Shown here one piece after another: positions 3,834-55,732 of a stretch of 55,743 nt of DNA. The translations under genes were made by a program, and so were the position numbers. Origin of the DNA: a virus. Taxonomy: Duplodnaviria > Caudoviricetes. Each line of letters begins with the position of its first letter. The stretch's first letter is position 1. The notes under the pieces were generated by a model. It was not told the DNA's origin and did no database searches. It saw only the letters and a program-made list of their open reading frames with translations. Location: positions 1 to 55,743 of the IMG/VR virus record IMGVR_UViG_3300020201_000023; one strand, 5' to 3'.

Positions 3834-4066
3834 GTCGCCACCTTGTCGCGTGCCGTGTTATACGCCGCCAGCGCGTCGACAACCCGCGCTTGACTGTCGT
3901 GCTCGGTCGAAGCGTTGTAGTCCCCCAGCAGTCGCGCGACTGCGACGGCGAGCACATCAGCAGCGCACATCGCGGCGCGCGCATTCGCCGTGGCGCGCGA
4001 CAAACCAGCGTCACGTCGTCGCCCGCATTCGTAGCACGTGCAGGCGGGGCGGTCGGGAAGCGTCAC
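3830..4066 (-). CDS. Hypothetical protein (CxCxxC; ends DKVAT)
   Basis: Coupled ORF. Confidence 0.55.
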   Translation of the reverse strand: MTLPDRPACTCYECGRRRDAGLSRATANARAAMCAADVLAVAVARLLGDYNASTEHDSQARVVDALAAYNTARDKVAT

Positions 4067-4701: not shown

Positions 4702-4913
4702 GTCGCCACCTTCGCGCGTGCCGCGGCGTACGCGTCAGCGAGTGTGATCGCGACCTCGTCGCACCCGTCGGCGACCCACGCCGCAAGCGCGTCGGCTGCG
4801 ATGACGCACGCGCACAGGTCGGACACGTGCTTGCGCAGGTCGCGCTCCAGGTCGCGCAGTTCTGCGTCGAGTTGCTCGTCGGTCTCGGGCAACGGCGCCT
4901 TGCGCGCGGTCAT
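4698..4913 (-). CDS. Hypothetical protein
   Basis: MTARKAP...AKVAT, coupled to both neighbours. Confidence 0.55.
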   Translation of the reverse strand: MTARKAPLPETDEQLDAELRDLERDLRKHVSDLCACVIAADALAAWVADGCDEVAITLADAYAAARAKVAT

Positions 4914-5815
4914 CGCTTCGCCTCCGCGCGTGCTTCCGCGCATGCGTCGGAGAGGAGCTCTATCATCAGCTTCCCGATGACGGTCAGGTGCGGGTCATAC
5001 CAGTAGTCACCGCCGTGCAGATATTGGAGCAGGTCGCGCGCTTCGTCTGCTCGCACGATAGGCGCCAGTCCTTGCCAGTCTGTGCGGAAGCGTGTGAGCG
5101 CCGCGTCGACGAGCGGCGACACGCCGAGCGCGACCCAGAAGCCGGCCGGGCCGTCCGTGGAGCGTGCCGCGTTGTACGCGTCAGCGAGCCGGCCGCCTTC
5201 CGTGTCTCTCCACTCGCCGTCGTCGGTGTAGAGGTCGCCGGTCTCGCGCGTCCACCCGAGGAACGCATCCGCCGCCGCCACGCATACCCGCATCGCCGTG
5301 AACGCCTCGTGCGCGTCGACTCGCGCTCGCGTCGCGTCGAGCGATATCTGGTCGCGGTCGCGGCGCAGCGTCTCGAGCTCGGCGCGCAGGTCGCGCACCG
5401 TGTCGCGCAGTTCGCACGCCTCGTCGTCGAGGCAGATCCACGCCCACGACCCGCCGCGGCGCTTGATGCGCAGCCCGTCGCCGGGGTCGCCCGGTCCGCC
5501 GCAGTCCGCGCAAACGCCGGGGCACACGGGCACCTCCGGCGCGGGCACAGCGACGAAAGCGTCCGCCGCCGTCGTGGCGGTGAGAGCCGTCATGCATTTC
5601 GCGCACATGCGACCCGGCATCGCCTGGCACGCTGTGCTCGCGCAGCCCACCACCTGCACGGTGCTCACGCGCTCGTCGCCTTCGCACACGGTGATGCGCG
5701 TCGCCGTCAGCGCCCTCGCCATCGCGTGGTACCGCTCCGGCGCAGCGTCGTACGTCGCGCGCGCTACGGCGATGCCGCCGGCTTCGAGTGGCTGGTCTTC
5801 TACGGTCTCAGTCAT
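4910..5815 (-). CDS. Hypothetical protein (Cys clusters and coiled coil)
   Basis: RBS GGAGG before MTETVED; ATGA overlap. Confidence 0.6.
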   Translation of the reverse strand: MTETVEDQPLEAGGIAVARATYDAAPERYHAMARALTATRITVCEGDERVSTVQVVGCASTACQAMPGRMCAKCMTALTATTAADAFVAVPAPEVPVCPGVCADCGGPGDPGDGLRIKRRGGSWAWICLDDEACELRDTVRDLRAELETLRRDRDQISLDATRARVDAHEAFTAMRVCVAAADAFLGWTRETGDLYTDDGEWRDTEGGRLADAYNAARSTDGPAGFWVALGVSPLVDAALTRFRTDWQGLAPIVRADEARDLLQYLHGGDYWYDPHLTVIGKLMIELLSDACAEARAEAKR

Positions 5816-6318
5816 GGTCGCCTCCAGAAAGCATTGCGCCCGCCATCTGCACACTCGACGCGCACCCACTCCGCCCGCACGGCGCGCGCGTAATCCTCGC
5901 CCGTCGGCGCCCCCCAATGTTCCGCCGCGCAAGCGCCGTCGCCGCCGGCCCGTGCCGCCTCAACAGCGCGCCGGTACACGCCCGCCAGTCGCGCCGACGG
6001 GCGCCCGCCGGGAAGCGCGAGGATGCGTGCCTGACGCGCGCTAGGCGAGCGCGATCGGTGAACAGCGCAGTAGACGCGCGCCATCGACGCGACGCGCATC
6101 CCGTGCGCAGCGGCGCGACGCTCGAGCACGTCGAGTATCGCGGACCAATCAACGCCACGCTCGTCTTCGGCGACGAGACATCGCGCGACGTCCGCCACGT
6201 CGGCGACGGTCGGGCGAGATTGAGCGAGCACGCGTTCACCGGTGCAGTCGAGGCAGCTCGCGAGGCCGATGCACACCGCGATCGCCGCGAGGACGAGGTC
6301 GTCGATGCCGCGCGTCAC
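5812..6318 (-). CDS. Exported protein, possibly cell-wall-hydrolase (SleB)-like
   Basis: Hydrophobic N-terminus. DVARCLVAED resembles the SleB LARxIxAE motif, but the match is weak. Confidence 0.35.
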   Translation of the reverse strand: MTRGIDDLVLAAIAVCIGLASCLDCTGERVLAQSRPTVADVADVARCLVAEDERGVDWSAILDVLERRAAAHGMRVASMARVYCAVHRSRSPSARQARILALPGGRPSARLAGVYRRAVEAARAGGDGACAAEHWGAPTGEDYARAVRAEWVRVECADGGRNAFWRRP

Positions 6319-7119
6319 GCCTCGCCTCCCGCGCTCGTGTAGCGGATCGCGCTGTCATCCGCGCGCCGCCGCGGTGCAGGCTGCGCGTCACGGCGCGTCG
6401 CATCGCCAGCGCGGAGAGCGCGCCACAGCGAGACGCCGAGGTCACGCGCGGCGCCAGCGAGGCAGCGTGCGTGGTAGTCGAGCTCGCCGGCATACTCGGC
6501 GGCAGCGGCGAGGTGGACGGCGCGGAGGCGCGTGCGCGTGCGCGTCATCGCAGCATCGCCAGCAGCACGAGCGCCGTCAGAACGAGCACGAGGCCAGCGG
6601 ACGCGACGAACGCGCGACCGTCGGCACGGTGGACCTCACGCGCCAGTTTCGCGCGAGACGAATCGCCAGCGGCGGCGCGCGCGCGCTCGGCGTCGAGCCT
6701 GTCGGTCAGGCCGGTGACATCGGACTCCGCCGCCTCCAGATCCGCAAGCGCCTCGGCGAGTTCCGCCTCGAGTTCGCGCCACTGCCGGCGCGTGCGGCGC
6801 GCGGGCTTCGCTTCGGCGGCGTTCACAGCGGCACCTCGACAAACACGAGTTGCGGCCCCGCCTCGGCGTCAGCAGCGGTCGCGAGGCGCATCGCCAGCAC
6901 ATGCCAGAGCATGACGACGGTGACGAGGCCATGGAGTTCCTGCGCCATGTGCGGCAGGCCGGCGCGCTCGGCGTCAACGACACGCTCTGCCAGCGCGTTC
7001 GCGCTGCGCGCCGCATAACTCGCGATGTCAACAGCGATAGCCGCGCGCACGTCAGGGACGACCTGCGCCCACGCGGCGGCAAAGTCCGCGAGTTCCGCCG
7101 GCAGGTCGGCGGCGGTCAC
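6315..7119 (-). CDS. Three coupled small hypothetical genes (6315-6548; 6545-6826 with coiled coil and TM helix; 6823-7119)
   Basis: Consecutive 4-bp overlaps. Confidence 0.55.
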
Positions 7120-7406
7120 TTCGCCACCGCCTTCCGCGCAGACTTGCCGCCGTGAAGCGCAGCGAGGGCGCGATGCACGTTGGCGCCGTCGGGCGGAAGC
7201 GCCGCCGCGTCGTTGCGCGGAGACGGCAGCAGCCAGACGGCATGGTCGAGGTATCCGGCGATCGTGCCGCCGTAGTCGGCGACGAGTTCCGCGAGGCGGT
7301 CTTTCGTCGACTGCTTGACGAGCGCGTAGATGACAGGGGGACGGTGCCCCACGGTGGACGGTCGCGTATTCGCTCGCGCACTCGGGCGCTTCTTCGGTGT
7401 GCTCAT
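7116..7406 (-). CDS. Small putative DNA-binding protein (ribbon-helix-helix-like), first gene of the leftward operon
   Basis: Basic N-terminus, then VIYALVKQSTKDRLAELVADYGGTIAGYLDHAV. Confidence 0.45.
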   Translation of the reverse strand: MSTPKKRPSARANTRPSTVGHRPPVIYALVKQSTKDRLAELVADYGGTIAGYLDHAVWLLPSPRNDAAALPPDGANVHRALAALHGGKSARKAVAK

Positions 7407-7409
7407 GCG

Positions 7410-7462
7410 TCCACCATCTATCAGACGCACGGCGCATGCGCAAGCGCTATCTTGCGAGTGCC
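7410..7462 (-). promoter_or_regulatory. Putative leftward promoter with overlapping inverted repeat
   Basis: Minus strand TTGCGC-N17-TAGATG. The cgcaag...cttgcg palindrome overlaps the -35 box. Confidence 0.45.
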
Positions 7463-8068
7463 CACGGGCGCTACGCTTGGGAGGGAGCGAGGCGACGGAT
7501 CACCCCCTCTTTCCCCCGAGGCTTCTACGCCTTCGAGAGAAGAGGGTGGATGCGCTGCGCCCGTGTCGGTCGCTCGGCAGACCTGCTGATCACCCGACGC
7601 ACATCCGCAGACGCACGCCGCGCACCACACTCCCTGTCTCACGGCGCCAGCAGATCTAAGCGCGCACGCGAGCGGAGCGCCGAGTCTGATTCAGCGGTCC
7701 GGTGCAGTGGTGACGTCGTGGCTATTCGGCCCGGACGTCTCTCGTCGTCCCTCATCGCTTGCGCGTAGGACGAGCGAGCCCGCGAGAGTGATGCTCCCGT
7801 CGGCTATCGAGGCCGACCCGTCCTCACTACACGACGAGCGCGCACTGCGCAAGTGCGCAGGATACACCTCCGCCGCTGCTCGAACAGCGGAGAGGCTGGC
7901 CACGCGCGGCGGTCGGTACTCCGGGAGGAGAGTTCCGATCGCGATTGCTCGCGGTTGCGTCGACTCTGCTTGCTGCCGGCTAGCAGTCAAGCGCGCGCGC
8001 AAGCGTGAAACAAAATGATACAAAACGTTGCACTTTGTGGCAATCGGCACGCATACGCAAAATAAATC

Positions 8069-8096
8069 TTGCGCGCAGTCGTGGACCTGATAGTGT
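8069..8096 (+). promoter_or_regulatory. Putative rightward early promoter
   Basis: TTGCGC-N16-TAGTGT downstream of an AT-rich tract (8005-8068). It shares CTGATAG with the leftward promoter. Confidence 0.45.
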
Positions 8097-8145
8097 CTCT
8101 CTTGTCAGGCGGACGGGCCGCCGACGCGACGAGAGAGACGACACC

Positions 8146-10741
8146 ATGGCAACCGAGAAAGAGCTGACCGAGAAAGAGACCGCCAGCCACACAAAAAACA
8201 TTACACACAAACTTACAAACAGTCCCGGCTTCGTGCTGCGCCTGCGCGCGCAGTACCTCGACGCGGTGCGCGCGCACGACGTCGCCAACACGACCGAGAG
8301 CTTCCTCGCGATGTGCGCGGCCGGCGCGCTACTGACAAGCGACGAGCGCGACGCGGCGCATTCGGTGTGGCTGTGACCCCGCGCTGCGAAGCGAACGTCG
8401 TCTGGGAACTGGCAACGCAACTGATGTTGGCGACGTCACCGAGCAGCGCGGTCGGTGTGGCGGCGCGTGCGGCGCACCTCGCGGCGATCGAGGCGGAGCG
8501 CGCGTGCGCGTGCGCGGCGCATCCGGCCGGCGAGGCGGCGCCCGTCGATGCGCGTGACCTGCACCAGCGCCGGTACGCCGAACTGCGGGCGGCGAAGGCT
8601 GCGCGTGTCGAGGCGCACGGCGGCGCGTGCTTCGGCGTGTGTTGCCTCGGGCAATCGAAGGCGGCGCGCGCAGCACACCGGGTCGTTGACGCCGCGCAAG
8701 ACGCGGTTGACGAGGTTACACGATGACGATCACCAAGACCGACACCTCGTGCCCATACGGGCACCCGCACACTGCTGGTCCGTGCGACGCGTGCCAGGCA
8801 CGCGCACACCGGGCGGCGGCGGCGCGCGTGGAGACCCGCGCTGAGGTGGTGAGTGGGGCGTCGTGGGACGCACTCGTCGCGGAGTACGGCGGCGACGGGC
8901 GCGGCATCACTCGCGCGGAGTTGGAGGCGAGCGTCGAAGAGCGACGCTCTTCCGCCGTGGCGATGGCCGTCGCCGACCTCGCGCGCGCTCAGTCGCGTAT
9001 CGCGCAGCCGGTGTGCGGTCACTGCCGCGCGGCGTGGTCCGCCGAGTGCGAGTGCCGGCGCGTGGCGGCGCGCGTGGCGGCGACGCCGGACGTCGAGGGG
9101 TACGCGACCGGGCTCGAACGGTTCGCGGCTGCGCTGCGGATGTACGCGCCTCGCGGCGGCGCGCAGGTGATGACGGTGCAGCAGTGCGCGGAACTCGCGA
9201 CCGGGCGCAGCATGGAGGTAGAGGCATGAGCGACGAAGAGCAGCGCATCGAGCACAGCGACCGCGTGGCGGCGCTCGCGGTCGACGCGGAGGAGCGGGCG
9301 ACGGCGCTTGCGTGGGAGATGATGGACGAGCGACGCGAGCGGGTAGCGCTGCTGCTGCGCGACGAGCCGGAGCGCGCGGCGTGGGTCGAGGTGCTCGGCG
9401 ACGACGTGCGCGACCACGCAGCAGACATCGCGCGTAATGCGATTCGCGGCGACACGACGCGCGACGACGATGCGCGTGAGGCGCTCGCGGACTGGCTGCG
9501 GGAAGAGGCGGGGCGAATCGTGGATGAGTGGCTGACGAAGAGGGGAGTGTTCACATGAAGACCGCGAAGCTAATGGGCAAAAAGACGTCGATGGACGGCG
9601 CAGTGCAGCGGCGCCACTACCGCCTATCGGAGCCGATCGCACCGCGCGACTGGCCCGGAGGCGAGTCGTCAGACCATGTCATCGTGTCCGCGTCGGCCGT
9701 CTCGGGCACGCCTGAGACGTACATTTTCACTGCTGACGCGAGTGGCAATATCAAGTCTTGGGTCGAATGCGACGGGTCGTTCCGCGGCGCGCTCGACCAT
9801 GACGAAGCGCTGCGCCGCGCGGGCTACGAGGTGGCGTCGTGAGCGACCACTACGAGGAACGGCGCGCTCGACGCGAGCGCATTGCGACGGCGTGCCTGGC
9901 CGGAATACTGTCGAGCGACGACGACGGCGGCGTAGACGCGGCAGCCGATTGGGCGCTGCGATACGCCGACGCGCTGATCGCCGTGCTCGACGCGCCGCCG
10001 CCGATGCGTCACCTGCCGACCGGCGGTGCCGAATGAACACCGAAGCGCGGCTAAGAACTCGAATCGATGCGCTGCGCTCAGCTCTGCTGCGTGTGGAACT
10101 GGCGCCGCGTGTGCCCGCGGGCGTCGAGCATATCGCGTTCGCTGCGATCGCCGACGACGACGCTGCGATCGTTCGCGACGCCCTCGCCGAGCGTCACCTC
10201 TCGAACGGCGGTGCCGAATGAGCGCGACGCCGGAACAAGAGGCGGAAGAGTGTGTGCTTGTCGAGGCCGCGGTGCACGCATCGCACGCCGCAAGGCGGTC
10301 GCTGGGTGCTTTGCGCGACGCGTTGTTCTCGACGCTTCCCGATCGATTGGAGCGATTGGAGCGCGCGGGTCTCGATTACGCCCGGCTCTCGGACAAATCG
10401 GACGAGGCGCAGGAGGCGTGGCTCGTCGTTCGACGGCGCAACGACGCGCTGCGCACGGTGTCGCGATGACCGCCGAGACGATCGCGCCGGTGATGGTGCT
10501 CGGCGTCGTGTGCGCGCACCGGTCCGACGCGTACGGGACGCGTACGTGGGCGGGCGAATCGGCGGCTGGGCTGACGATGCATCTGACGCGCGATCTCGAC
10601 TACTGCTGGCTGACAGTGTTCCTCGGCGCTCACGTGCTCTCGCAGGGGCGCGGCGCGACCGTCGACGAAGCGGAGGCGGCGTGCGAGCGGCGGGCGATGG
10701 AGCGGCAAGCGCTGCTCGCGCACGTGCGGAGGGTGACGTGA
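8146..10741 (+). CDS. Run of nine coupled small early hypothetical genes (8146-8376, 8373-8726, 8723-9229, 9226-9558, 9555-9842, 9839-10036, 10033-10221, 10218-10469, 10466-10741)
   Basis: Perfect chain of 4-bp start/stop overlaps; no recognisable domains. Confidence 0.65.
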
Positions 10742-24105: not shown

Positions 24106-25134
24106 TCACTCTGCGGCGCACGCGCTGGCAACGTAAAACGTGCCGGCTGCGCCCGTGCGCCGAAACTCAATCGTGAAAGTCGAGTTCGCGAACGTGCCGC
24201 CCGGCAGCCCGCTCGCGACCGTGAGGTCTTCGCAAGCGAACGACAGCGACGTCGTGTACCAAGCGAACGTCGTACCGGGGTCCGTGACGGTCAGTGTCAC
24301 GCTAGCCGCAGTCGCGTTGTTCGTGATTCGGATCTCGCCGTCCGTGGTGGCGTTGCTCGCGCGGCACAAAAACGAGAATCCAACGGAGCGAGCCGTGTCC
24401 GCCGCTAGAATCTTGCGCGTGAGGATGTGCCCCTGAATGAGCATCGGGACGAACGACCCGACGGAGTCGCCCCAGCAATCCGTGATGTTGTCCGGGCGCG
24501 CATACCCGAGGTAAGTGCGCCGGAGCAGCGCGCCGGTGCCAGCCATTCGTTCGTGCGCGTCGAAGATGCCGCCGAGCGAATTGTTCTCGCGTGCGTCGAT
24601 TGGCTCGCGCGCCCACGCGCTGGTCATCTCGACGCCGCGGTCGGTGGCGTCGAGCGCCAGCACGGCGCGCGGCGATTCGTGGCACGAGATGCCCGAGATA
24701 CGAGCGCCGCCGGACCCGGCGCCGTTGACGATCGTCAGCGTGAGCGTTTGCAGCGCGCTGCTCTTGGCGGTGAGATCCTCGAGATATTCGATCGGCACGG
24801 CGTCGGACGGCGACGCGGGGACGTCGACAGTTCTGGACGCCATCGCGCCGGCCGATATCGTCGCAGTCCCGCCTCGCGTGTCGCCGATGATGTAGATGCG
24901 CCACACGCGGCGCACCGAGCGCCCGTTCGGCGAGACGCGGTATTGAAAGGTCTTGGTCGCGCCGGCCGCAATCGCCTGGTCTGGGTCGTACGCGGGCACG
25001 AGCACGTCGCCTTGGCCGAGGCACCAGTTGGCGAGCTCTACGCCAGTGAGCCAGGTACGCGAGCGCACCGCGCGACCGCTGACGACGTCGGCCTCGCGCA
25101 CGATGCTGCGGCGGCGTGGGACTGATGCGGTCAC
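24106..25134 (-). CDS. Minor tail protein
   Basis: Beta-rich ORF downstream of the tail tip gene. Confidence 0.6.
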   Translation of the reverse strand: MTASVPRRRSIVREADVVSGRAVRSRTWLTGVELANWCLGQGDVLVPAYDPDQAIAAGATKTFQYRVSPNGRSVRRVWRIYIIGDTRGGTATISAGAMASRTVDVPASPSDAVPIEYLEDLTAKSSALQTLTLTIVNGAGSGGARISGISCHESPRAVLALDATDRGVEMTSAWAREPIDARENNSLGGIFDAHERMAGTGALLRRTYLGYARPDNITDCWGDSVGSFVPMLIQGHILTRKILAADTARSVGFSFLCRASNATTDGEIRITNNATAASVTLTVTDPGTTFAWYTTSLSFACEDLTVASGLPGGTFANSTFTIEFRRTGAAGTFYVASACAAE

Positions 25135-25769
25135 AGCGGCACCTGCTCTGCGGCGTACGCTTGCGTGCAGAACGCGGCGCCTGCGACAGCGGAAAACGCC
25201 CAGACTTCGATCACGACCATCACGGCGGCGACGCTTCCGGGGCTGCCGGAGTTCACACCGTCGACGATGGCGAGCGACGTCGCGAGAAACGACGCATCAA
25301 GCGTCAGCGTGGTCTTCGCCACCGTCGGGTCGCGCCATGCGTTCGTCGCCGACGTGAACGCCGCCGTCTCGAGGATGTTCGCGCCGATCGTCGTCGCCTG
25401 CATCTCGATACTCGCGGACGACGGGAGGCACGCGCCGATGCGCAGTCGGCTGGACGCGACGCCGTCACTTCGTCCGCCGACGCGCGCGCGAATCGGATAC
25501 GGCAGCCCGTCGGAGCCGACGAGCAGCGGGAACGGGCCGAAACTGTAGAGCCGCTGCCACTCGCTCGCGACGCCGACCTTGACGCCGATGCCGCCCGTCG
25601 TCGTGCTCAGCGGAGGGAACGAGACGAGCACGCGCGAGCGCGAATCGGCCAGCGCGTTGAGATTGTTCGCAAGCGTGCGCATGGTGCTCGTCGCGCACGC
25701 AGTGCCGCTAACGGCAGCGGCGCCGGCGGGCACGCCGTCGATCTGACCGAGTTCGGATGCCGTCGCCAA
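25131..25769 (-). CDS. Minor tail protein
   Basis: TTG start with RBS GGAGG; position in the tail module. Confidence 0.6.
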   Translation of the reverse strand: MATASELGQIDGVPAGAAAVSGTACATSTMRTLANNLNALADSRSRVLVSFPPLSTTTGGIGVKVGVASEWQRLYSFGPFPLLVGSDGLPYPIRARVGGRSDGVASSRLRIGACLPSSASIEMQATTIGANILETAAFTSATNAWRDPTVAKTTLTLDASFLATSLAIVDGVNSGSPGSVAAVMVVIEVWAFSAVAGAAFCTQAYAAEQVPL

Positions 25770-25813
25770 AGTGCCTCCGTTGCGCGCTCGCGGCGCCGTG
25801 TCACGATTCGCGG

Positions 25814-26089
25814 ATGAAGACGACGACGTTCGCGATGATGGTACTGGCGGCGGCGATGATGGGTGCGTGCGACGATCGCGTTCGCGTGCCCGTGGAGCGC
25901 GAGGACGCTGGCGCGATGCGAGACGCCGCGCCTCGCCCGTCCTATTGCTGCGACAGCGCGCGCTCGATCTGCCAGCCGATTGAGGGAAGCGTACTGCGCA
26001 CGGACTGCGTCAGCTGCACCCCCGGCGGCGGCTGCAACGGCGGGTGCTACATGGATAGCGGGTCGGCGAAGTGCGCGCTCGCCTACTAG
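25814..26089 (+). CDS. Cys-rich lipoprotein (moron, opposite strand)
   Basis: MKTTTFAMMVLAAAMMGAC lipobox and 8 further Cys. It exactly fills a gap in the minus-strand tail operon. Confidence 0.75.
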   Translation: MKTTTFAMMVLAAAMMGACDDRVRVPVEREDAGAMRDAAPRPSYCCDSARSICQPIEGSVLRTDCVSCTPGGGCNGGCYMDSGSAKCALAY

Positions 26090-28734
26090 CTCGCGAACTG
26101 CCGCGCGGCCTTGTTGCCCGTGCCGAACGCGATTAGCCCGGCGGCAGTGGCGATGTAGCAGTATGCCTGCTGCGACGTCGTCGCTACCGCCGCGACTCCG
26201 TACTCGAGATTGAGCGTGCCGCCCGGCGTGGCGCCCGATATCGTGCCGATCGTGATCGTCCGCGTCGCGACGTTGACGGCCGTAACCGTGGCGGTGATCT
26301 CGCTTGGACCCGTGGTGTTGTATTGCCGCAGGATGACGCGGTCGCCGACGAGCCACGCCGACGCGGTCGCATATCCACCCGGCTGCACCGCATCGAGCAG
26401 CACGTCGCGCGTCACGCCTGCCGACACGCTGGTCACGCGCGAACTCGGAGCGTAGCCGGCGATCCGCAACTGAGTCGCGAAGATGGTGAGCTCGACGCAC
26501 GATTGCGAAGGCTTCACCTGCCGGCCGATGACGAAGCCCGAGACGGCGGAGATGCCGCGCCCGCCGTCCACGGCGTCGGGCAGCTGAGAGATGGTCACGC
26601 TGACCTGCGCGCCGATCGTCGCGTTGATGGCGTCGAGCGGGCACATGACAGTGATCGACGTGTACGCCGCGCCGAGAGAGCCGAGCCATCCTTGCGCGAG
26701 CGCGACGACGTCCGCCGTCGGCATCGTGGAGTCGCCGAGAAACGCCTCGGAGCGCGGCTCGATCTTCATCACGAACGGCAGCGGCTGCCGGCTCAGCGCG
26801 GCCGAGTCGCGCACGTTGAACGAATCGCCAATGTGCTTGCCAGTCAGCACGTCGAAGCCCGACTTGACCGCAATCGTGTTGACGAGTCCGAACGCCGACG
26901 GCTCGTATCCGGGGCGCTGTTTGCCGCTGAGATTCTTGCTCGCGTTGATCGCGTACGTACCCGCTTCGGTCGCCGCGCCGATGCGGAACTCGACAGCGGT
27001 CCAGGCGCCGGTCGTTGTAATCGACGGCACCATGCCGAGCAGTTTCAACTCCTCGGCGATCATCTTGCTCAGCGAGAAGTCGGACGACCCTCCGTAGAAG
27101 CGCTGGTCAACCCACGCACGGCCGAGCGCGACGGCGTCGACGTTGGCGGCCGTCGTGAGGTAGTCGATGTGATTCGTCGTAACCATCGGCGAACGGCCGA
27201 GCGGCGCTTCGTCGGGCGCCTCGAGCGCAAGCGTGGCCATGAAGTCGCCGAAGTTCCCGGCGCTGACGTAGGTGCGGGCGACCTGCACCGTCGGAGCGAT
27301 GTCGCGCGTCCAGATGCGTTGCGAGGCACCGCTGCTGGACTGGGCGATCGTCGCTGCGCGCGTCGTCGAGTTCCACGCGGTCACTCGGTACACCATACCC
27401 CTACTGAACGCGCTGCCGGACCCGTCCGCCCACTCGATGTAGAGCGCATCGCCGACGCGCAAGGACGTAGTGCCGCCCATGTACAGCACGTCAGCACGAC
27501 CAGAGCCGCCGCCGCTGCGCCCTGGAGTCCCGGTAAAGTAGCCGCCGACAAACCCACGCGGCACAGTGCCAGCGCCGACGATAGGGTACGTCGCCGGGAT
27601 CTGATATGTGGTGTTCGCGGCAACGGTGGTCACGGCTGCGCCGGTCGTTGTGTTGTAGTAAAAGTCACGCCCGCTGATCGTCGGGTCAAGCGGACCACCG
27701 CAAACTACGCTGAGCCACAGATTCGACGCCGCGGTGGTGTAGAGCAGCCCCCACGCGCCGTCTACAGTGGGCACCGCGACGAGCCGCGGCGCTGCGCCTC
27801 CAGCCACGTTGAGCGCGTTGGCGCCCCATCCGGCGGTCGCCGTTGTAACCGCTGCGTTGAACGCGGCGCACCACGCGTCTTGCGTCTCGTAGAAGGCTGG
27901 CGGAAACGGGACCGTCGCGGTGTCAGTTGACGGCGCGCTGACGTTTGTGGTGTTGGTGAGCCGGGTAATGCGCAGCGTCGGCGCCGTCGTCGAGTTGTAG
28001 ACGATGCCGCGCAGCGTCGCCGGGTCTTGCAGGTCAGTCGACATCGACTGGTCGAGGATGCTCGTGACGCTGCCGATCGGCAGATCCCACGACGTCAGTC
28101 CGCGGATGCGCGGCTCTCCGCAGATGCCGCGCCACACGAGCGTCCCGTCGCCGGTCTCGCCGTCGCCGTATGCGTAGACCGCCGCGATCAGCCCCTTGAT
28201 CGACGGCCGGCCGTTGAACGCGCCGACGTCCTCGGTCGTCACCTCGGGGCGCGAGAGGTTGAGTCCAGGATTGTAGATGTGCGACTGAGCGAGCGTCTGC
28301 CGGTATCCGCGCGTCACCGTCGGCGCGAAGGTACCGCCGCCGCTCGTGATGAGCATGCACTCTTGACCGACGAAGAGAACATCGCCGTTCGCCGTGTCCG
28401 TGCTGACGAGCGGTATCGCGACGGCCGCCGCGTTGATCGACGACGACAGGTAGTTGACCTTCGTCGGCTGCCTCACGAACGAGTCGCCGACGCGGTGCGC
28501 GCCGTCCTCGACGATCGACGCGGTGAAGCCGGTCCCGGAGAGCTTGCCGACGGCGGGGTCGAGTCGCTCGCCCCATTGAATGCTCTTGGCGTCGAGCCCG
28601 GCGACGCGGATGCGGCCGTCCGTGCTCGCGCCGACGAGCCGCGTGGAGCTCACCACCTCGATCGGGTGCCCGAGTATCATCAGGCGGAACGCGGTCGCGC
28701 CACTGCCCGTCTCGACGACGCGAGCCCAGGTCAC
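26086..28734 (-). CDS. Large tail tip / baseplate-hub-like protein
   Basis: 882 aa, T/G/S-rich, second gene after the tape measure. Confidence 0.7.
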   Translation of the reverse strand: MTWARVVETGSGATAFRLMILGHPIEVVSSTRLVGASTDGRIRVAGLDAKSIQWGERLDPAVGKLSGTGFTASIVEDGAHRVGDSFVRQPTKVNYLSSSINAAAVAIPLVSTDTANGDVLFVGQECMLITSGGGTFAPTVTRGYRQTLAQSHIYNPGLNLSRPEVTTEDVGAFNGRPSIKGLIAAVYAYGDGETGDGTLVWRGICGEPRIRGLTSWDLPIGSVTSILDQSMSTDLQDPATLRGIVYNSTTAPTLRITRLTNTTNVSAPSTDTATVPFPPAFYETQDAWCAAFNAAVTTATAGWGANALNVAGGAAPRLVAVPTVDGAWGLLYTTAASNLWLSVVCGGPLDPTISGRDFYYNTTTGAAVTTVAANTTYQIPATYPIVGAGTVPRGFVGGYFTGTPGRSGGGSGRADVLYMGGTTSLRVGDALYIEWADGSGSAFSRGMVYRVTAWNSTTRAATIAQSSSGASQRIWTRDIAPTVQVARTYVSAGNFGDFMATLALEAPDEAPLGRSPMVTTNHIDYLTTAANVDAVALGRAWVDQRFYGGSSDFSLSKMIAEELKLLGMVPSITTTGAWTAVEFRIGAATEAGTYAINASKNLSGKQRPGYEPSAFGLVNTIAVKSGFDVLTGKHIGDSFNVRDSAALSRQPLPFVMKIEPRSEAFLGDSTMPTADVVALAQGWLGSLGAAYTSITVMCPLDAINATIGAQVSVTISQLPDAVDGGRGISAVSGFVIGRQVKPSQSCVELTIFATQLRIAGYAPSSRVTSVSAGVTRDVLLDAVQPGGYATASAWLVGDRVILRQYNTTGPSEITATVTAVNVATRTITIGTISGATPGGTLNLEYGVAAVATTSQQAYCYIATAAGLIAFGTGNKAARQFAS

Positions 28735-45192: not shown

Positions 45193-45404
45193 GCTCGCCT
45201 CCACGACGCTGTCAGCGGTTGACGCGCTTGCACGCATCCTCGCCGCTCGGGTCGCCTCCTGCACCGCGTGAGTGCCGGTGGGGTGGTTCGTCGCCCCTCG
45301 CCCGCCGGTCCACCCCCAGGGTAGAGTTATGCCCTAGCCGCGGCGGTATGTCTCGTGTCAGAACGCGCCATCCGTTGCCATCCGTTGCCATCTCATGCCG
45401 CGGG

Positions 45405-45569
45405 CTACTTGCGCGCCTTCCACATCGCGAGCCCCTTTTCGAGCAGATGCCGCACCGCATCCGCCTGCGTGAACTGGATTCCGTGCGCCGACTCCATGCC
45501 GACCCGGTGCGCCTCGATTCGAGAGAGCAGCTCCGCCGATACGCGCACGGTCACTTTTTGGTCGTTCAC
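45405..45569 (-). CDS. Ribbon-helix-helix protein (54 aa, not in the ORF track)
   Basis: Manual translation: MNDQKVTVRVSAELLSRIEAHRVGMESAHGIQFTQADAVRHLLEKGLAMWKARK. Confidence 0.7.
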   Translation of the reverse strand: MNDQKVTVRVSAELLSRIEAHRVGMESAHGIQFTQADAVRHLLEKGLAMWKARK

Positions 45570-45618
45570 TCGCTACCGCCTTTCGCGCATCGTACTACAC
45601 CCGCCGCGCCCGTCCGAT

Positions 45619-45843
45619 TGGTCCGCGCACCCGGTACTTGATCCGGATGCGCGGAGTACTTCCCTTGGTTCGCCTTGCCGCGCCGCGCCTAGCCCGGCCT
45701 TGCCACGCCCAGCCTAGCCCGGCCGCGCCTGGCCATGATTGGTCGCTGGCGGAAGCATTGAACCTCCGCCAGCGGTACTACCCTTGGTTCGCCTTGCCAC
45801 GCCTCGCCAGGCCTCGCCATGCCACACCACGCCAAGCCTCGCC
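45619..45843 (-). ncRNA. Putative guide-RNA block 3: arrays A6 (45789-45843, 11 pentamers) and A7 (45670-45734, 13 pentamers), each followed by a tRNA-like minihelix
   Basis: (GGY-NN)n plus GGCGAACCAAGGG; hairpins at 45740-45774 and 45619-45654. Confidence 0.8.
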
Positions 45844-46346
45844 TAGTCTTTCTTCTCGGGGAGTGCCGCCGGCACATCGACCGCGAGGAATTTGCGCTTG
45901 CGAACGAGCACGCTCAGCGCGCCGATCTTCGCCAACGAGTTCAGTTGCATCGCCGCCGCGCCGGCGTCGAGCTTGCTCCGGTCCACGTTCACGAGCAACG
46001 CCGCGCTCGACTTCATGCCCTTGCGCACGCTGCTCTCGAGTTTGTCGCGCCCGTGCGTGATCTGGTCCACCGGCGACAGGACTTCGTAGCCTTTGCCGGG
46101 CACGCTCTTGATGTCGATGTGGTGCTCGGTGAGCAGCGCGTTGCGCAGCCCGTCCATCTGCGAACAGTAGCGAAGCTCGAGCCGCTGATGGTCGGCTGAC
46201 GTGATGAGCTCGTCCGGCTTGGGCGTCCTGATCCGCAGTTGCGACCTCAGCCATTCGTGCGTGTAGATCGTCCCCGGCGAATGGTCGCCTTCGATGATGA
46301 TCTTCGCCACCGCAAGATAGTCCGGATAGAGTTCTGTGTCTGCCAT
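45843..46346 (-). CDS. Accessory protein of the repeat locus (winged-helix-like)
   Basis: RBS AGGAGG. LRNALLTEHHIDIKSVPGKGYEV resembles a wHTH recognition helix plus wing. Flanked by arrays. Confidence 0.75.
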   Translation of the reverse strand: MADTELYPDYLAVAKIIIEGDHSPGTIYTHEWLRSQLRIRTPKPDELITSADHQRLELRYCSQMDGLRNALLTEHHIDIKSVPGKGYEVLSPVDQITHGRDKLESSVRKGMKSSAALLVNVDRSKLDAGAAAMQLNSLAKIGALSVLVRKRKFLAVDVPAALPEKKD

Positions 46347-46377
46347 TCGCCGCCTCCTGTTGATTCGGACCCGTGTC

Positions 46378-46591
46378 CCCTTGGTTCGCCTCGCCAGGCC
46401 GTGCCACGCCTCGCCGCGCCCCGCCTCGCCCCGCCCTGCCGCGCCGTGCCCGGCCGCGCCTTGGCCGCCAGCGGAGGTATCGAGCCTCCGCTGGCGGGTA
46501 CTGCCCTTGGTTCGCCTTGCCTGTCCGCGCCACGCCAGACCTCGCCATGCCGCGCCTCGCCCCGCCGTGCCGAGCCTCGCCCAGCCTAGTC
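46378..46591 (-). ncRNA. Putative guide-RNA block 2: arrays A4 (46512-46586, 15 pentamers) and A5 (46386-46460, 15 pentamers) separated by a minihelix
   Basis: Same unit structure; hairpin at 46462-46496. Confidence 0.8.
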
Positions 46592-47164
46592 CTAGATCAC
46601 CTCGAACCGTCCGAAGCGCGGACGATACTGGCCGATCCCTTCGTATTGCCCCGCCGACTTCGCGTAGTCTCGGAGCTGCTCTTCACTCACCAGCGCCGGG
46701 TCGAAGAAGAGCGGACACGACACTTCCCACTCGGGGAAGACCGCACGCGTGCGCAGCAACGCACCGCCGCCGTTGTTCTTGATCGCGCGCTTGTCGACGT
46801 AGCGGCCTGACGCCCACATCGCCTCCAGCGTGCGCGGCCCATCGTACTTGATGGCGCACTTGTCATCGACGTTCTGGATCGCGCGGTTGACCGTCATGCC
46901 CATCTTCGTCAGCTTCGCGCCGTTGCGAATGCACCGCGTGATGTTCCACCCAGGGATGAAAGGGCCGACCTTGTCGTCGAAGCTCTGCGCCATCGCCATG
47001 CGCCATTCGATGTGCTGGATCTCGAGCTTCTGGTCGTCCGACTTCTTGCGGACGTCGGTGAGCTTTTTCAGCTCGCGCGAGATGGGGTGGAACGGGTCGA
47101 GTCCCACCGTGCCAGTCGGCATCATCGGCGCAGTCCCGCGAATCTTCAGCTGCATGATTTCCAT
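46592..47164 (-). CDS. RAMP / Cas7-like RNA-binding protein (candidate effector)
   Basis: N-terminal strand LKIRGTAPMM, PFIPGWNITRCIRNGA (cf. RAMP PxIPGSSLKGxLR), thumb region RTRAVFPEWEV, C-terminal G-rich loop GIGQYRPRFGRFEV. Confidence 0.8.
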   Translation of the reverse strand: MEIMQLKIRGTAPMMPTGTVGLDPFHPISRELKKLTDVRKKSDDQKLEIQHIEWRMAMAQSFDDKVGPFIPGWNITRCIRNGAKLTKMGMTVNRAIQNVDDKCAIKYDGPRTLEAMWASGRYVDKRAIKNNGGGALLRTRAVFPEWEVSCPLFFDPALVSEEQLRDYAKSAGQYEGIGQYRPRFGRFEVI

Positions 47165-47227
47165 GTGTCGTCTTCCTGTCCGCCCGTGAGGGCCATTGCG
47201 TTGTCCGTCCTACGTCGGCCCCATGGC

Positions 47228-47549
47228 CCCTTGGTTCGCGTTGCCGGGCCGGGCCCCGCCTCGCCAAGCCCGGCCACGCCGAGCCTCGATTGGCCGACGC
47301 GCGGGGTATTGAGCCCCACGCGCCGGGTGCTTCCCTTGGTTCGCCTGGCCAAGCCCGGCCCCGCCATGCCTCGCCACGCCCCGCTGCGCCAAGCCTCGCC
47401 GTGATTGGTCACCACCGCAGGTATTGAGCCCGCGGTGGCGATACTTCCCTTGCCTTGCCACGCCAGGCCCCGCCCGGCCGAGCCGTGCCCCGCCGTGCCC
47501 AGCCCAGCCCAGCCACGCCTCGCCATGCCACGCCGAGCCCTGCCACGCC
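47228..47549 (-). ncRNA. Putative guide-RNA block 1: arrays A1 (47450-47549, 20 pentamers), A2 (47341-47400, 12), A3 (47236-47285, 10) separated by minihelices
   Basis: Strict 5-nt period GGC-NN; hairpins at 47406-47440 and 47291-47325. Confidence 0.8.
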
Positions 47550-47565
47550 TCACTCCGACTCCAAC

Positions 47566-47594
47566 CATCTAGCGCGTCCGCGATGCGCCGTCAA
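47566..47594 (-). promoter_or_regulatory. sigma70-like promoter of the repeat/RAMP locus
   Basis: TTGACG-N17-TAGATG ending 16 bp upstream of the first pentamer. Confidence 0.6.
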
Positions 47595-47607
47595 GCGCGG
47601 CTGCATC

Positions 47608-48657
47608 TTATTTCGCAGATAGTACGACGCGCGCCCGAGGCACCGTGTCCGCCATCCGCCACGCATCGATCTCCGCGCGCACCGCTTCGACCGTCGAAGT
47701 GTGCCGGCGTTTTCGAACCGGCAGCGGGTCGACTTCCCGATCGGCGAGCCGGATGGCCGTGCGGTGCGATACCCGCGCGTAATCGGCGATTGCCTTCCAT
47801 CCGAAGAGATCCGTGAGCGGTCCATGAGACATCGTCGTGTACCTCCGGTCGAGCGGTACCAGCCCGCGCGAATGCAGCCGTGCAAACATCTCGCGCAGCC
47901 CCGAGCTTTGCAGCTCGGCGACGTGCGGCTCCGACACATGGCGGCCGAACACGCGCGAGGCGTGCGCGGCAACCTGCTCCAGTCCCGGCAGGTCGTACGG
48001 CTTGAACATGTCGCCGGCCTCGCGCGCCGGTCGGCCTCGCACTGACACGCGCGCCGCCGGCTTCTGCCGTGTCGGATCCCAGACGCCGCCGCCTTCGTTG
48101 CGCCCCTTGATCGCCGTGTGCGACTGCAACGGCGCGAAGTCGCCCTCGATGCCGAACACCGCCCAGAGCACGACTCGCCGCGCTTGGTCGCCGGTGAGCT
48201 CGAGCGTGGAAGTCGCGATCGTCGCGCACCAGCCCGAGGCGAACACGAGCGCCCAATCGCGTTCGACGAACACGACGCGTTCAGCCGCGCGCTGCCCTGC
48301 GTCGCCTACCGCCGTCGTCGACACGCAGCCGCCCGTTGCGTCGTCGCCAATCTTCCAGCACGACCTCAGCGGCGCCCCGTCGAGTCGCGTGTCGATGACG
48401 GCTTGGAGCGCCTGCCGCACGCCGCGGAACTCCGGGCGCGTGCTCTCTCCGCGCTGCTCGCGGCGCTTCATTGCGATCGCCTCGACGGTCGCGCGGTAGT
48501 TCTCCGCGTCGCACTCGGCGGCGCTCACCTCGCGATACGGAAGCGGAGCGAGCGACTCGGCGAGACGCGTCTCGAGGATGATGGACTCGACGTCGTCGAG
48601 CGCCGCCCCGTCGGTGAGCAGCGCCCGCACGTCCACGACCCATCGCGAGCGCGTCAC
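47608..48657 (-). CDS. Hypothetical protein with C-terminal HTH (possible late regulator)
   Basis: LFGWKAIADYARVSHRTAIRL...LPV...AEIDAW, an excisionase-like HTH; last gene of the replication operon. Confidence 0.6.
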   Translation of the reverse strand: MTRSRWVVDVRALLTDGAALDDVESIILETRLAESLAPLPYREVSAAECDAENYRATVEAIAMKRREQRGESTRPEFRGVRQALQAVIDTRLDGAPLRSCWKIGDDATGGCVSTTAVGDAGQRAAERVVFVERDWALVFASGWCATIATSTLELTGDQARRVVLWAVFGIEGDFAPLQSHTAIKGRNEGGGVWDPTRQKPAARVSVRGRPAREAGDMFKPYDLPGLEQVAAHASRVFGRHVSEPHVAELQSSGLREMFARLHSRGLVPLDRRYTTMSHGPLTDLFGWKAIADYARVSHRTAIRLADREVDPLPVRKRRHTSTVEAVRAEIDAWRMADTVPRARVVLSAK

Positions 48658-55517: not shown

Positions 55518-55732
55518 TCATCCGCGCCCGTGCGCAATCGCCGCCGCGCGCATCGCCAGCCCGGCGACGAGCTCGACGCGCCCGCCTGCCGGCACGCCGC
55601 CTGTCTGCCCCGCGAGCCACGTCAGATCGGCGTCCGTGCCCCTCGCGAGCACGGCGCGCAGCACGGCGACGGTCGGCCGCTCCGCGCGTATCTCGTCGGC
55701 GATGGCGTCGGCCTGCGCCTGCACTGCGCGGC
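55518..55732 (-). CDS. Hypothetical protein, 3' part (starts at 344 across the junction)
   Basis: In frame through the terminal repeat. Confidence 0.7.
55634..55732. repeat. Terminal direct repeat, right copy
   Basis: Identical to 8-106. Confidence 0.93.

What the first reader, a model, noticed from the sequence alone, without database searches (positions are those of the whole stretch)
45619..47440. Five tRNA 'top-half' minihelices (12-bp stem + T-loop + RCCA) punctuate the arrays: probable host RNase P processing signals
Seen, minus strand: CGCCACCGCGGG-ctcaata-CCTGCGGTGGTG-ACCA (47406-47440); CGGCGCGTGGGG-ctcaata-CCCCGCGCGTCG-GCCA (47291-47325); CGCCAGCGGAGG-ctcgata-CCTCCGCTGGCG-GCCA (46462-46496); CGCTGGCGGAGG-ttcaatg-CTTCCGCCAGCG-ACCA (45740-45774); CCGCGCATCCGG-atcaagta-CCGGGTGCGCGG-ACCA (45619-45654). 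Stem sequences differ but pairing and the 12-bp length are kept, which is covariation within one locus. Each hairpin starts 6-7 nt after the constant AAGGG. Established: 12 bp (7 acceptor + 5 T stem) with a T loop and NCCA is the tRNA minihelix, a minimal bacterial RNase P substrate. Inference: the locus has no Cas6 and instead uses tRNA-maturation enzymes. RNase P would cut 5' of each stem and a 3'-processing nuclease after CCA, releasing unit guides. There are no U tracts, so these are unlikely to be terminators.
Basis: partly seen in the sequence, partly recalled or inferred. Interest (0 to 1): 0.88.

Follow-up and report, generated by a model that had tools for sequence, protein, structure and literature searches.

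The report
tRNA-like hairpins punctuating phage VIPR guides
The five hairpins are real, conserved mimics of the top half of a tRNA that sit between the guide RNAs of a phage VIPR system (a CRISPR-related system described in 2026), and they probably let the host's ordinary tRNA-trimming enzymes cut the guides apart, although no cleavage has been shown.

Summary
Observation confirmed. Five minus-strand hairpins lie at the stated coordinates, each with a 12-bp stem, a T-loop-like loop (NUCRA) and RCCA. They fold far better than shuffles and show strong covariation. One correction: in 4 of 5 the "discriminator" can pair with base -1, giving 13 bp.

The "arrays" are not a new system. Gene 47164-46595 encodes a Vipr protein (profile E 9e-60 to PDB 36pp, SUSP1 Vipr), and the seven GGC-NN arrays are vrRNAs of a VIPR system (bioRxiv 2026). 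The hairpins are the structured modules that follow five of the seven vrRNAs.

The tRNA reading gains comparative support. In other Vipr loci, modules with an acceptor stem, a D-loop-like ATGGT linker and a canonical GGTTCGANTCC T arm sit between arrays (39 model hits in 17 of 91 sources, all on the array strand). Some sit before the first array, which fits processing and not only capping. A relative's genuine tRNA genes mostly end in CCA.

RNase P or 3'-tRNase cleavage remains inferred; no RNA data exist. The four VIPR-related papers I searched do not contain "tRNA" or "tRNA-like". This scan has already noted tRNA-like VIPR tails on other genomes. This locus is a linker-less, CCA-bearing variant.

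The parts
47566..47594 (-). Candidate promoter of the locus: TTGACG, 17 nt, TAGATG
   Evidence: Read. The same layout (TTGACA, 17 nt, TAGATA) lies before the first array of the close relative L064. The consensus scan did not call it. Inference only.
47452..47549 (-). vrRNA array 1 (about 20 GGC-NN units)
   Evidence: Period-5 caller
47406..47440 (-). Minihelix 1: 12-bp stem (13 with base -1), 7-nt loop, ACCA
47343..47400 (-). vrRNA array 2 (12 units)
47291..47325 (-). Minihelix 2, GCCA
47243..47285 (-). vrRNA array 3 (9-10 units). It ends in AACCAAGGG plus a small 4-bp hairpin (about 47228-47217) and has no minihelix. The vipr gene follows.
46595..47164 (-). vipr gene (190 aa, RAMP/Cas7-like Vipr protein)
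   Evidence: Profile A1 against PDB 36pp_D 'SUSP1 Vipr protein' gives E 9.1e-60. The single sequence gives E 4.6e-24 over residues 1-189. phrog_4652 E 7.9e-42. AlphaFold2 model pLDDT 96.3.
46514..46586 (-). vrRNA array 4 (15-16 units)
46462..46496 (-). Minihelix 3, GCCA
46388..46460 (-). vrRNA array 5 (15-16 units). It ends in AACCAAGGG plus a small 4-bp hairpin (about 46378-46367) and has no minihelix. Gene B follows.
   Evidence: The same 20-nt ending occurs in relative L007/L329.
45846..46346 (-). Gene B (167 aa), probable vipr-accessory (vap-like) gene
   Evidence: phrog_5926 E 4.8e-16. Weak similarity to the gene directly after vipr in Gordonia phage MakoManhole (E 0.003) and to LittleE gp33 (E 0.004). 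56% identical and syntenic in L007.
45791..45843 (-). vrRNA array 6 (11-12 units)
45740..45774 (-). Minihelix 4, ACCA (the only copy with U at loop position 54 and an unpaired discriminator)
45672..45734 (-). vrRNA array 7 (13 units)
45619..45654 (-). Minihelix 5, 8-nt loop, ACCA; last element of the locus

Best explanation
The locus (about 47600 to 45600, minus strand) is a phage VIPR system: a Vipr protein, a vap-like gene and seven vrRNAs made of GGC-NN pentamer repeats. Each vrRNA ends in a constant AAGGG-NAGYAY motif.

Five of the seven are followed by a 35-nt hairpin that mimics the coaxial acceptor/T-arm half of a tRNA. It has a 12-13 bp stem, a G:C closing pair, a loop reading NUCRA, and then RCCA-A. 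I read these as a linker-less, CCA-bearing form of the tRNA-like modules that punctuate vrRNA arrays in many other Vipr loci.

The most likely mechanism is as follows. The multi-guide transcript is cut into unit vrRNAs by the host's tRNA-maturation enzymes. RNase P would cut at the 5' base of the stem. A 3' tRNA-processing activity would cut at or just after CCA; in a CCA-encoding host this would be an RNase E-type cut followed by exonuclease trimming. These enzymes would play the role that Cas6 plays in CRISPR, or that hammerhead ribozymes play in other VIPR arrays.

Shown here: the identity of the system, the structure and covariation of the hairpins, and their homology of position with canonical tRNA-like modules. 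Inferred: that any tRNA enzyme acts on them, and where it cuts.
For: Identity of the system:
- The Vipr profile hits PDB 36pp (SUSP1 Vipr) at E 9.1e-60; the single sequence gives E 4.6e-24.
- Seven period-5 arrays of 9-20 units occur only here in the genome.
- The VIPR preprint describes vrRNAs as 9-16 YNNGG repeats plus a structured 3' tail (sections read).

Structure of the hairpins:
- z-scores are -4.6 to -6.7.
- 95.2% of cells pair, 11 of 13 pairs are compensatory, and 0 of 500 shuffles reach this.
- Invariant in the 8 aligned tails are loop U, C and A plus the CCAA trailer. The closing pair is G:C in the five window copies and L064, but not in the two L329 tails (GC 6, AU 1, other 1).

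tRNA theme in relatives:
- A strict 'top-half' scan gave 16 hits in 23,396 nt of array-downstream zones against 6 in 930,154 nt elsewhere.
- Eleven elbow-type modules align with an invariant GG and a near-invariant ATGGT linker context, plus GGTTCGANTCC. They fold as 6+6 coaxial bp, with 11 of 12 pairs compensatory.
- Model R1 finds 39 hits (E up to 1) in 17 of 91 sources, all on the array strand (11 of the hits are training rows).
- 29 of 39 hits lie -1 to 25 nt after an array, and 27 of 39 are followed by the next array within 18 nt.
- In L351 and L371/L372 a module sits directly after a gene's stop and before the first array. There it cannot be a guide's 3' cap.
- L009 carries both the elbow type and the linker-less type in one locus, with the same trailer.
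- One L052 module weakly matches Rfam mascRNA (25.9 bits, E 0.37, below cut-off). mascRNA being an RNase P product is recalled.

CCA: in the 198-kb relative phage that holds L329, 24 of 30 genuine tRNA genes encode CCA, 14 of them followed by A. Its VIPR hairpins end in CCAA too.

No U tracts or terminator-like sites were found.
Against: - No RNA evidence of any kind is available.
- In the published SUSP1 system the structured tail (a pseudoknot) stays on the mature vrRNA and caps the filament (passages). An RNase P cut 5' of the stem would remove the only structured tail from these guides.
- Departures from a tRNA minihelix: base -1 pairs with the 'discriminator' in 4 of 5 window copies (6 of 8 aligned tails). 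The first pair is C:G in all copies. Loop position 54 is U in 1 of 5. One loop has 8 nt.
- The elbow-type model R1 does not hit the window hairpins at E up to 1. Rfam's tRNA model does not hit them either, and ARAGORN finds nothing.
- Relatives with the same AAGGG-NAGYAY motif carry non-T-loop hairpins: L019 has a GCAA tetraloop, L088 a GAGA loop, and L039 a tetraloop followed by CCA. Some end in plain intrinsic terminators. A T loop is therefore not required across the clade.
- Arrays 3 and 5 have only a small 4-bp hairpin.
Confidence: 0.55

Rival explanations
1. Retained 3' tail or cap. The hairpin stays on the mature vrRNA, like the SUSP1 pseudoknot. It protects the 3' end from exonucleases, marks the end of the Vipr filament and perhaps helps assembly. 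The tRNA likeness would then serve at most to set the 3' end at CCA, or be incidental.
For: - The published vrRNAs keep a structured tail that caps the filament. One preprint treats the tail as what makes an RNA competent for Vipr complex formation (passages).
- All seven window vrRNAs would then share one plan, AAGGG plus a hairpin, either small or large.
- Relatives use GNRA or other hairpins at the same place.
- The stem is often 13 bp with no free discriminator.
Against: - The stem sequences differ among the five copies, so a sequence-specific protein handle is unlikely.
- The conserved loop NUCRA and trailer CCAA are exactly the tRNA-like positions.
- In relatives the homologous-position modules are canonical tRNA mimics, and some precede the first array, where no guide can be capped.
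- LittleE-type loci have a separate small hairpin before the tRNA-like module.
Confidence: 0.3
2. Transcription terminators or attenuators that set the relative dosage of guides and genes along the operon.
For: They are stable GC-rich hairpins. In some relatives the last vrRNA is followed by a hairpin with a U tract (L055, L062, L085).
Against: None of the five has a U tract, and the terminator scan found 0 sites. The vipr and vap-like genes lie downstream of hairpins 1-3 with no evident new promoter. The conserved CCAA and loop are left unexplained.
Confidence: 0.04
3. DNA-level elements: cruciform or single-strand hairpins acting as recombination or exchange points for guide cassettes. Alternatively, stems diversified to escape rival vrRNAs that target tail DNA.
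For: The close relative L064 has an identical hairpin 1 but different guide arrays on either side. One preprint reports vrRNAs that target the repeat-tail junction of rival VIPR loci (passage).
Against: G:U pairs occur in the stems (GU or UG at five pair positions), which fits RNA rather than DNA pairing. No recombinase is adjacent. The strand-specific CCAA and T-loop-like motifs match an RNA reading.
Confidence: 0.04

Closest known systems
VIPR systems, type II (Escherichia phage SUSP1, Pseudomonas fulva prophage); bioRxiv 10.64898/2026.04.26.720920 and 10.64898/2026.04.26.720927
   Same: There is a Vipr protein homologue, GGY-NN pentamer vrRNAs placed upstream and downstream of vipr, an adjacent small accessory gene, and a phage carrier. 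Each guide is followed by a constant structured 3' part.
   Different: The 3' part here is a simple 12-13 bp hairpin with a T-loop-like loop and CCA, not the SUSP1 pseudoknot. The stems differ between copies in one genome, whereas the SUSP1 tail is described as invariable. 'tRNA' has 0 occurrences in the three VIPR preprints. 'RNase' has none in the first two and one in the third, an RNase A step in DNA extraction. Figures and supplements were not visible.
Hammerhead-ribozyme-interspersed vrRNA arrays (VIPR types I and V; same preprint, fig. S19 legend read)
   Same: A structured RNA module sits between adjacent vrRNAs, and its evident job is to cut the array into units.
   Different: Those modules cut themselves. 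Here the module would borrow host enzymes. No hammerhead was found in the window.
Elbow-type tRNA-like modules in other Vipr loci (for example Mycobacterium phage LittleE gp34 locus, L350/L409; L351, L354, L371/L372, L052), found here and noted earlier by this scan on other genomes
   Same: They hold the same position (a few nt after an array, with the next array a few nt later), the same 12-bp coaxial helix length and the same strand. L009 mixes both forms.
   Different: Those modules have a 10-13 nt D-loop-like linker (ATGGT) and a canonical TTCGANT loop, and most lack an encoded CCA (trailers like CGC). The window form has no linker, mostly C at position 54, and an encoded CCA.
tRNA acceptor/T-arm minihelix model substrates of bacterial RNase P, and MALAT1/mascRNA-type 3'-end formation (recalled, not read here)
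   Same: A 12-bp helix, T-loop-like loop and RCCA. The tRNA-like element sits at the 3' side of a functional RNA.
   Different: Cleavage is untested. The first pair is C:G, base -1 is often paired, and U54 is mostly absent.
Engineered polycistronic tRNA-gRNA arrays for CRISPR multiplexing (recalled, not read here)
   Same: The logic is the same: guides separated by tRNA-like units and released by RNase P and 3' tRNases.
   Different: That design is man-made and uses full tRNAs. This would be a natural counterpart with a minimal mimic.

Membership tests
VIPR system | Vipr (minimal RAMP) protein | tested here: met
   Profile E 9.1e-60 and single-sequence E 4.6e-24 to PDB 36pp_D 'SUSP1 Vipr protein', full length. 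The family has 1955 representatives at E up to 0.001.
VIPR system | vrRNAs of about 9-16 tandem GGY-NN pentamers in intergenic regions flanking vipr | tested here: met
   Seven arrays of 9-20 units lie on the gene strand, three upstream of vipr and four downstream, and nowhere else in the genome.
VIPR system | Constant structured 3' tail after the repeats | tested here: met
   AAGGG-NAGYAY plus a hairpin after 5 arrays and AAGGGG plus a small hairpin after 2. The fold differs from the SUSP1 pseudoknot.
VIPR system | Adjacent vipr-accessory (vap) gene | tested here: inconclusive
   Gene B is syntenic and shows only weak similarity to the genes after vipr in MakoManhole and LittleE (E 0.003, 0.004). 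There is no Pfam or NCBIfam hit.
VIPR system | vrRNA expression and Vipr-vrRNA complex; DNA targeting by the 1-nt skip rule | not testable with these tools
   No RNA run holds the locus. Targets were not searched here.
tRNA gene | Cloverleaf with D and anticodon arms | tested here: not met
   ARAGORN finds 0. Rfam tRNA gives no hit at gathering score or at E up to 10.
tRNA acceptor/T-arm minihelix (minimal RNase P substrate) | 12-bp coaxial helix (7 + 5) | tested here: met
   All 12 pairs are formed in 5 of 5 window copies. Covariation is shown.
tRNA acceptor/T-arm minihelix (minimal RNase P substrate) | 7-nt T loop U54-U55-C56-R57-A58 closed by G53:C61 | tested here: inconclusive
   U55, C56, R57, A58 and G53:C61 are present in 5 of 5. 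U54 is present in 1 of 5 (C in 3, A in 1). The loop has 7 nt in 4 of 5.
tRNA acceptor/T-arm minihelix (minimal RNase P substrate) | Unpaired discriminator followed by CCA | tested here: inconclusive
   CCA is present in 5 of 5, with A or G before it. That base can pair with base -1 in 4 of 5 window copies and 6 of 8 aligned tails.
tRNA acceptor/T-arm minihelix (minimal RNase P substrate) | G+1:C72 and U-1 preference of bacterial RNase P (recalled) | tested here: not met
   Base +1 is C in 5 of 5. Base -1 is U in 2 and C in 3.
tRNA acceptor/T-arm minihelix (minimal RNase P substrate) | Cleavage by RNase P at the stem base | not testable with these tools
   No RNA-end data; an experiment is needed.
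Intrinsic terminator | GC-rich hairpin followed by a U tract | tested here: not met
   0 terminator-like sites in 45300-47750. The trailers read CCAA.
Hammerhead-interspersed vrRNA array | Hammerhead ribozyme between vrRNAs | tested here: not met
   No Rfam ribozyme hit at gathering score or at E up to 10.

The most novel reading that the evidence does not exclude
A sizeable subset of VIPR systems has no dedicated guide-processing nuclease or ribozyme. These systems instead encode miniature tRNA mimics between guides, so that host RNase P and 3'-tRNA nucleases (plus CCA handling) act as their 'Cas6'. The window would show the most reduced natural form: a 35-nt linker-less minihelix with encoded CCA, matched to a host or phage whose tRNA genes encode CCA. 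This would be a natural counterpart of engineered tRNA-gRNA arrays. It would also make guide biogenesis depend on essential host enzymes that a rival cannot easily switch off. The released CCA-minihelices might have a second life as decoys for tRNA-directed enzymes.
Probability: 0.45. Interest if true: 0.75.

Novelty: new variant of a known kind. Interest (0 to 1): 0.6.

Why it matters
VIPR systems were described only in 2026. The texts I could search do not say how multi-guide vrRNA transcripts are cut into units, apart from hammerhead-interspersed arrays. tRNA-like punctuation gives a concrete and easily tested answer for many loci. It would explain how a two-gene system can do without a processing nuclease, and it ties guide supply to essential host enzymes. 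It also offers a compact natural part (35-48 nt) for multiplexing guides.

The cultured Mycobacterium phage LittleE carries five such modules in an unannotated locus, so a bench test is within reach.

For this window the finding is not a new system. It is a new tail form of a known one.

Tried and rejected
- Similar DNA in cultured phages: blastn of the locus found nothing.
- Pfam and NCBIfam gave nothing for the four and three proteins tested.
- CRISPR-like reading: rejected once the Vipr match appeared.
- TRAP-like RNA-binding ring, R-loop origin, G-quadruplex, partition-site and iteron readings of the pentamers: considered from the sequence and dropped for the same reason.
- Pseudoknot like SUSP1: I looked by eye for pairing between the NAGYAY flank and the loop. 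Only 3-4 nt matches appeared in some copies, with no support in L329. It was not tested formally.
- The genome-contig scan with the tail pattern gave 15 loci. Only L022 and L036 have arrays; the rest look like chance, so there is no host clue.
None of the fetched loci (L091 to L328) had an array upstream, so both scans were wasted.
- Host assignment through a head-morphogenesis-like protein gave only distant hits to phages of many hosts, so there is no conclusion.
- No RNA holder was listed for the locus.
- Laying contigs of four DNA runs gave mostly fragments of unrelated pentamer arrays and a few single-contig differences, including one in the non-conserved loop position of hairpin 4. Nothing there is usable as evidence.
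- The Rfam search at a loose threshold gave three weak hits that I treat as chance: STnc380 E 3.5, sR30 E 4.3, c4-a1b1 E 9.3.
- ARAGORN on 60 related loci found only two ordinary tRNA-Leu genes away from the arrays.
- Supplementary files and figures of the preprints were not seen. They may show tail structures of other VIPR types, including tRNA-like ones.
Full report
**What is there.** The window is a whole 55,743-bp virus record. Between about 47600 and 45600 the minus strand carries seven arrays of period-5 GGC-NN units, with 9 to 20 units each, and none elsewhere in the genome. Six arrays end in the constant GGCGAACCAAGGG or a one-mismatch form of it, and the first ends in a GGCAAGGCAAGGG variant.

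After arrays 1, 2, 4, 6 and 7 come 6-7 nt of the form NAGYAY(N). After arrays 3 and 5 there is only a small 4-bp hairpin, followed by a ribosome-binding site and a gene (47164-46595, 190 aa, and 46346-45846, 167 aa). ARAGORN finds no tRNA, and Rfam finds nothing at gathering score.

**Is the observation more than chance?** Yes.
- Each hairpin folds at -25 to -29.3 kcal/mol, with z-scores of -4.6 to -6.7 and at most 1 of 200 shuffles folding as well.
- I aligned the five window tails with one further tail from the near relative L064 and two from L329 (the same locus as L007). 95.2% of cells form standard pairs, and 11 of 13 pairs show changes on both sides. None of 500 column shuffles reaches the observed values, and sliding the 3' partners drops pairing to 33-50%.
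- Invariant in all 8 aligned tails are AAGGG, AG, the loop U, C and A, and the trailer CCAA. The closing pair is G:C in 6 of 8; the two L329 tails depart.
- A covariance model of these tails finds only the five known sites in the window.
The MFE is 13 bp in all five copies; in four the extra pair joins the base before the stem to the supposed discriminator, and in hairpin 4 it closes the loop instead. The -1/discriminator pair is formed in 6 of 8 aligned tails. Hairpin 5 has an 8-nt loop.

**What the system is.** The 190-aa protein belongs to a large phage family: 1955 representatives at E up to 0.001, phrog_4652, and 130 cultured phage records including Felixounavirus, Gordonia, Mycobacterium and Pseudomonas phages.
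- A profile of 88 members hits one solved structure, PDB 36pp 'SUSP1 Vipr protein', at E 9.1e-60. The window protein alone gives E 4.6e-24 over its full length. The AlphaFold2 model is confident, with pLDDT 96.3.
- The literature search led to three 2026 preprints on VIPR (Viral Interference Programmable Repeat) systems. I read the Results and Discussion of the first. I read passages of the second and third.
- According to these preprints, Vipr is a minimal RAMP protein that polymerises on vrRNAs. A vrRNA consists of 9-16 YNNGG repeats followed by a constant structured 3' tail, which is a pseudoknot in the SUSP1 clade. The NN dinucleotides read DNA with a one-base skip. Loci typically hold vipr plus one vap gene.
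- The preprint names several array architectures: plain arrays, staggered arrays, hammerhead-ribozyme-interspersed arrays and single vrRNAs.

The window locus fits this description point by point. The seven arrays are vrRNAs. Gene B is syntenic with, and weakly similar to, the gene after vipr in two cultured phages (E 0.003 and 0.004).

**What the hairpins are within that system.** They occupy the place of the vrRNA tail.
- The short motif AAGGG-NAGYAY is shared by loci whose Vipr proteins are only 26-29% identical. Vipr homologues lie next to the arrays in 11 of 13 loci found by the DNA pattern. That pattern selected for the motif, so its conservation is partly by ascertainment.
- The structure that follows the motif varies from clade to clade:
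  - T-loop-like 12-bp hairpins plus CCAA in the window, L064 and L329
  - T-loop-like hairpins without CCA in L009
  - a GCAA-tetraloop hairpin in four identical copies in L019
  - a GAGA-loop hairpin in L088
  - a 14-bp tetraloop hairpin followed by CCA in L039
  - intrinsic terminators after last guides (L055, L062, L085)
  - in L052, three modules with an acceptor-like stem, a short linker and a T arm with a canonical T loop, the third ending in G-CCA

**The tRNA theme is general.** I fetched 80 Vipr loci by protein similarity. Together with the window, 74 of these 81 sources hold GGY-NN arrays, 241 in all.
- I ran a strict scan for a 'tRNA top half'. It required a 7-bp acceptor with at least 6 pairs, a linker of 0-20 nt, a perfect 5-bp T stem closed by G:C, a loop reading TTCRANN, and the acceptor 3' strand directly after the T stem. 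It gave 16 hits in the 23,396 nt lying within 100 nt downstream of arrays, against 6 in 930,154 nt elsewhere. With any base at loop position 1 the counts are 22 against 15, and four window hairpins are included.
- Eleven elbow-type modules align with an invariant GG and a near-invariant ATGGT context in the linker, plus GGTTCGANTCC. By recalled tRNA knowledge, these are the nucleotides that make the D-loop/T-loop elbow. RNAalifold gives 6+6 coaxial pairs, the same 12-bp length, and 11 of 12 pairs show compensatory change.
- A covariance model of these modules finds 39 matches (E up to 1) in 17 of 91 sources, all on the array strand. Eleven of the matches are the training rows, and several more are near-identical copies.
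- Of the 39 matches, 29 begin -1 to 25 nt after an array, and 27 are followed by the next array within 18 nt.
- One source is Mycobacterium phage LittleE. Its gp34 is the Vipr protein, and no RNA feature is annotated in the region.
- One L052 module weakly matches Rfam's mascRNA family (25.9 bits, E 0.37, below the cut-off).
- The model does not hit the window hairpins. It does reach the linker-less hairpin of L009, at 18.3 bits. L009 holds an elbow-type and a linker-less module in the same locus with the same trailer. That links the two forms.

**Mechanism.** Two observations favour processing over a mere 3' cap.
- First, in L351 and in L371/L372 a module lies directly after the stop codon of a protein gene and 2-4 nt before the first array. 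No guide precedes it there. Its evident use is to free the 5' end of the following guide.
- Second, in LittleE-type loci a separate small hairpin lies between the repeats and the tRNA-like module. The module is therefore an addition to a tail, not the tail itself.

The encoded CCA of the window clade fits a host or phage in which tRNA genes encode CCA. The 198-kb relative phage that holds L329 has about 30 tRNA genes. Of 30 examined, 24 end in CCA, 14 of them followed by A. Its VIPR hairpins end in CCAA. Most elbow-type modules instead carry trailers such as CGC. They would need cleavage after the discriminator and CCA addition; that step is recalled tRNA biology and was not tested.

I therefore think the five hairpins most likely serve as punctuation read by RNase P at the stem base and by 3' tRNA-processing nucleases at CCA. 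None of this has been shown.

**Against this reading.**
- No RNA data exist.
- The published SUSP1 tail is retained on the mature guide.
- The first stem pair is C:G, position 54 is mostly C, and base -1 is usually paired.
- Close relatives use non-T-loop hairpins.
- Two of the seven guides have no minihelix.

The main rival is that the hairpin is a retained 3' cap, with CCA at most marking the end. I give this about 0.3.

**Novelty.** VIPR is known. Text searches found no occurrence of 'tRNA' in the three VIPR preprints. 'RNase' does not occur in the first two; its single occurrence in the third is an RNase A step in phage DNA extraction. A fourth preprint that mentions VIPR holds neither 'tRNA-like' nor 'minihelix'. 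Six papers hold 'vrRNA' (four listed, copies of one work shown once). In a search for papers holding at least two of vrRNA, RNase P, tRNA-like, minihelix and RNase Z, none of the 15 listed of 85 held vrRNA. Figures and supplements were not visible, so an unlabelled drawing of such modules cannot be excluded.

After I had formed my reading, I looked at this scan's own notes. They already report tRNA-like tails or separators in VIPR arrays of several other genomes. The present case agrees with them and adds a linker-less, CCA-bearing form. I class it as a new variant of a known kind.

Noticed in passing
L350 / L409 (Mycobacterium phage LittleE, NC_042322.1 about 24400-26650): A cultured mycobacteriophage carries an unannotated VIPR locus. 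gp34 is the Vipr protein and gp33 the neighbouring vap-like gene, both annotated as hypothetical. There are at least four arrays and five tRNA-like modules, and no RNA feature is annotated there.
   Followed up: partly
G001 (record behind L329), about 2400-9050 minus strand: The closest relative of the window's VIPR locus sits in a complete 198-kb phage with terminal repeats. About 30 tRNA genes lie in a head-to-tail array some 6.5 kb from the VIPR locus on the same strand. 24 of 30 encode CCA.
   Followed up: partly
L064 1290-1668 versus window 47550-47290: A near relative has an identical hairpin 1 and promoter-like region, but different guide arrays and a different second hairpin stem. Guides and stems appear to turn over faster than the constant motifs.
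   Followed up: partly
window 45736-45835 (-): There is a weak Rfam match to the enterobacterial sRNA family STnc380 (16.9 bits, E 3.5). Its consensus shows a CAAAGGGAAGU-like motif followed by a 13-bp hairpin, reminiscent of a vrRNA tail. It may be chance, but it is worth checking whether STnc380 is a solo vrRNA.
   Followed up: no
window 47228-47217 and 46378-46367 (-): vrRNAs 3 and 5, which precede vipr and gene B, end in AAGGGG plus a 4-bp hairpin instead of a minihelix. The ending of vrRNA 5 is identical over 20 nt in L007/L329. How these two guides are released from the mRNA is unexplained.
   Followed up: no
window about 45566-45405 (-): A small ORF directly after hairpin 5 translates to a ribbon-helix-helix-looking peptide (VTVRVSAELLSRIEAH...). 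It may be a regulator linked to the locus.
   Followed up: no
window 18-42 and 55644-55668: The same 11-12 nt tandem unit (CGCGAGCACGG) is reported at both ends of the record. This suggests terminal redundancy, although the record is classed as linear.
   Followed up: no
L339 3916-3988 (-): A genuine tRNA gene (63.6 bits) lies on the opposite strand, just downstream of a vrRNA array in another Vipr locus.
   Followed up: no
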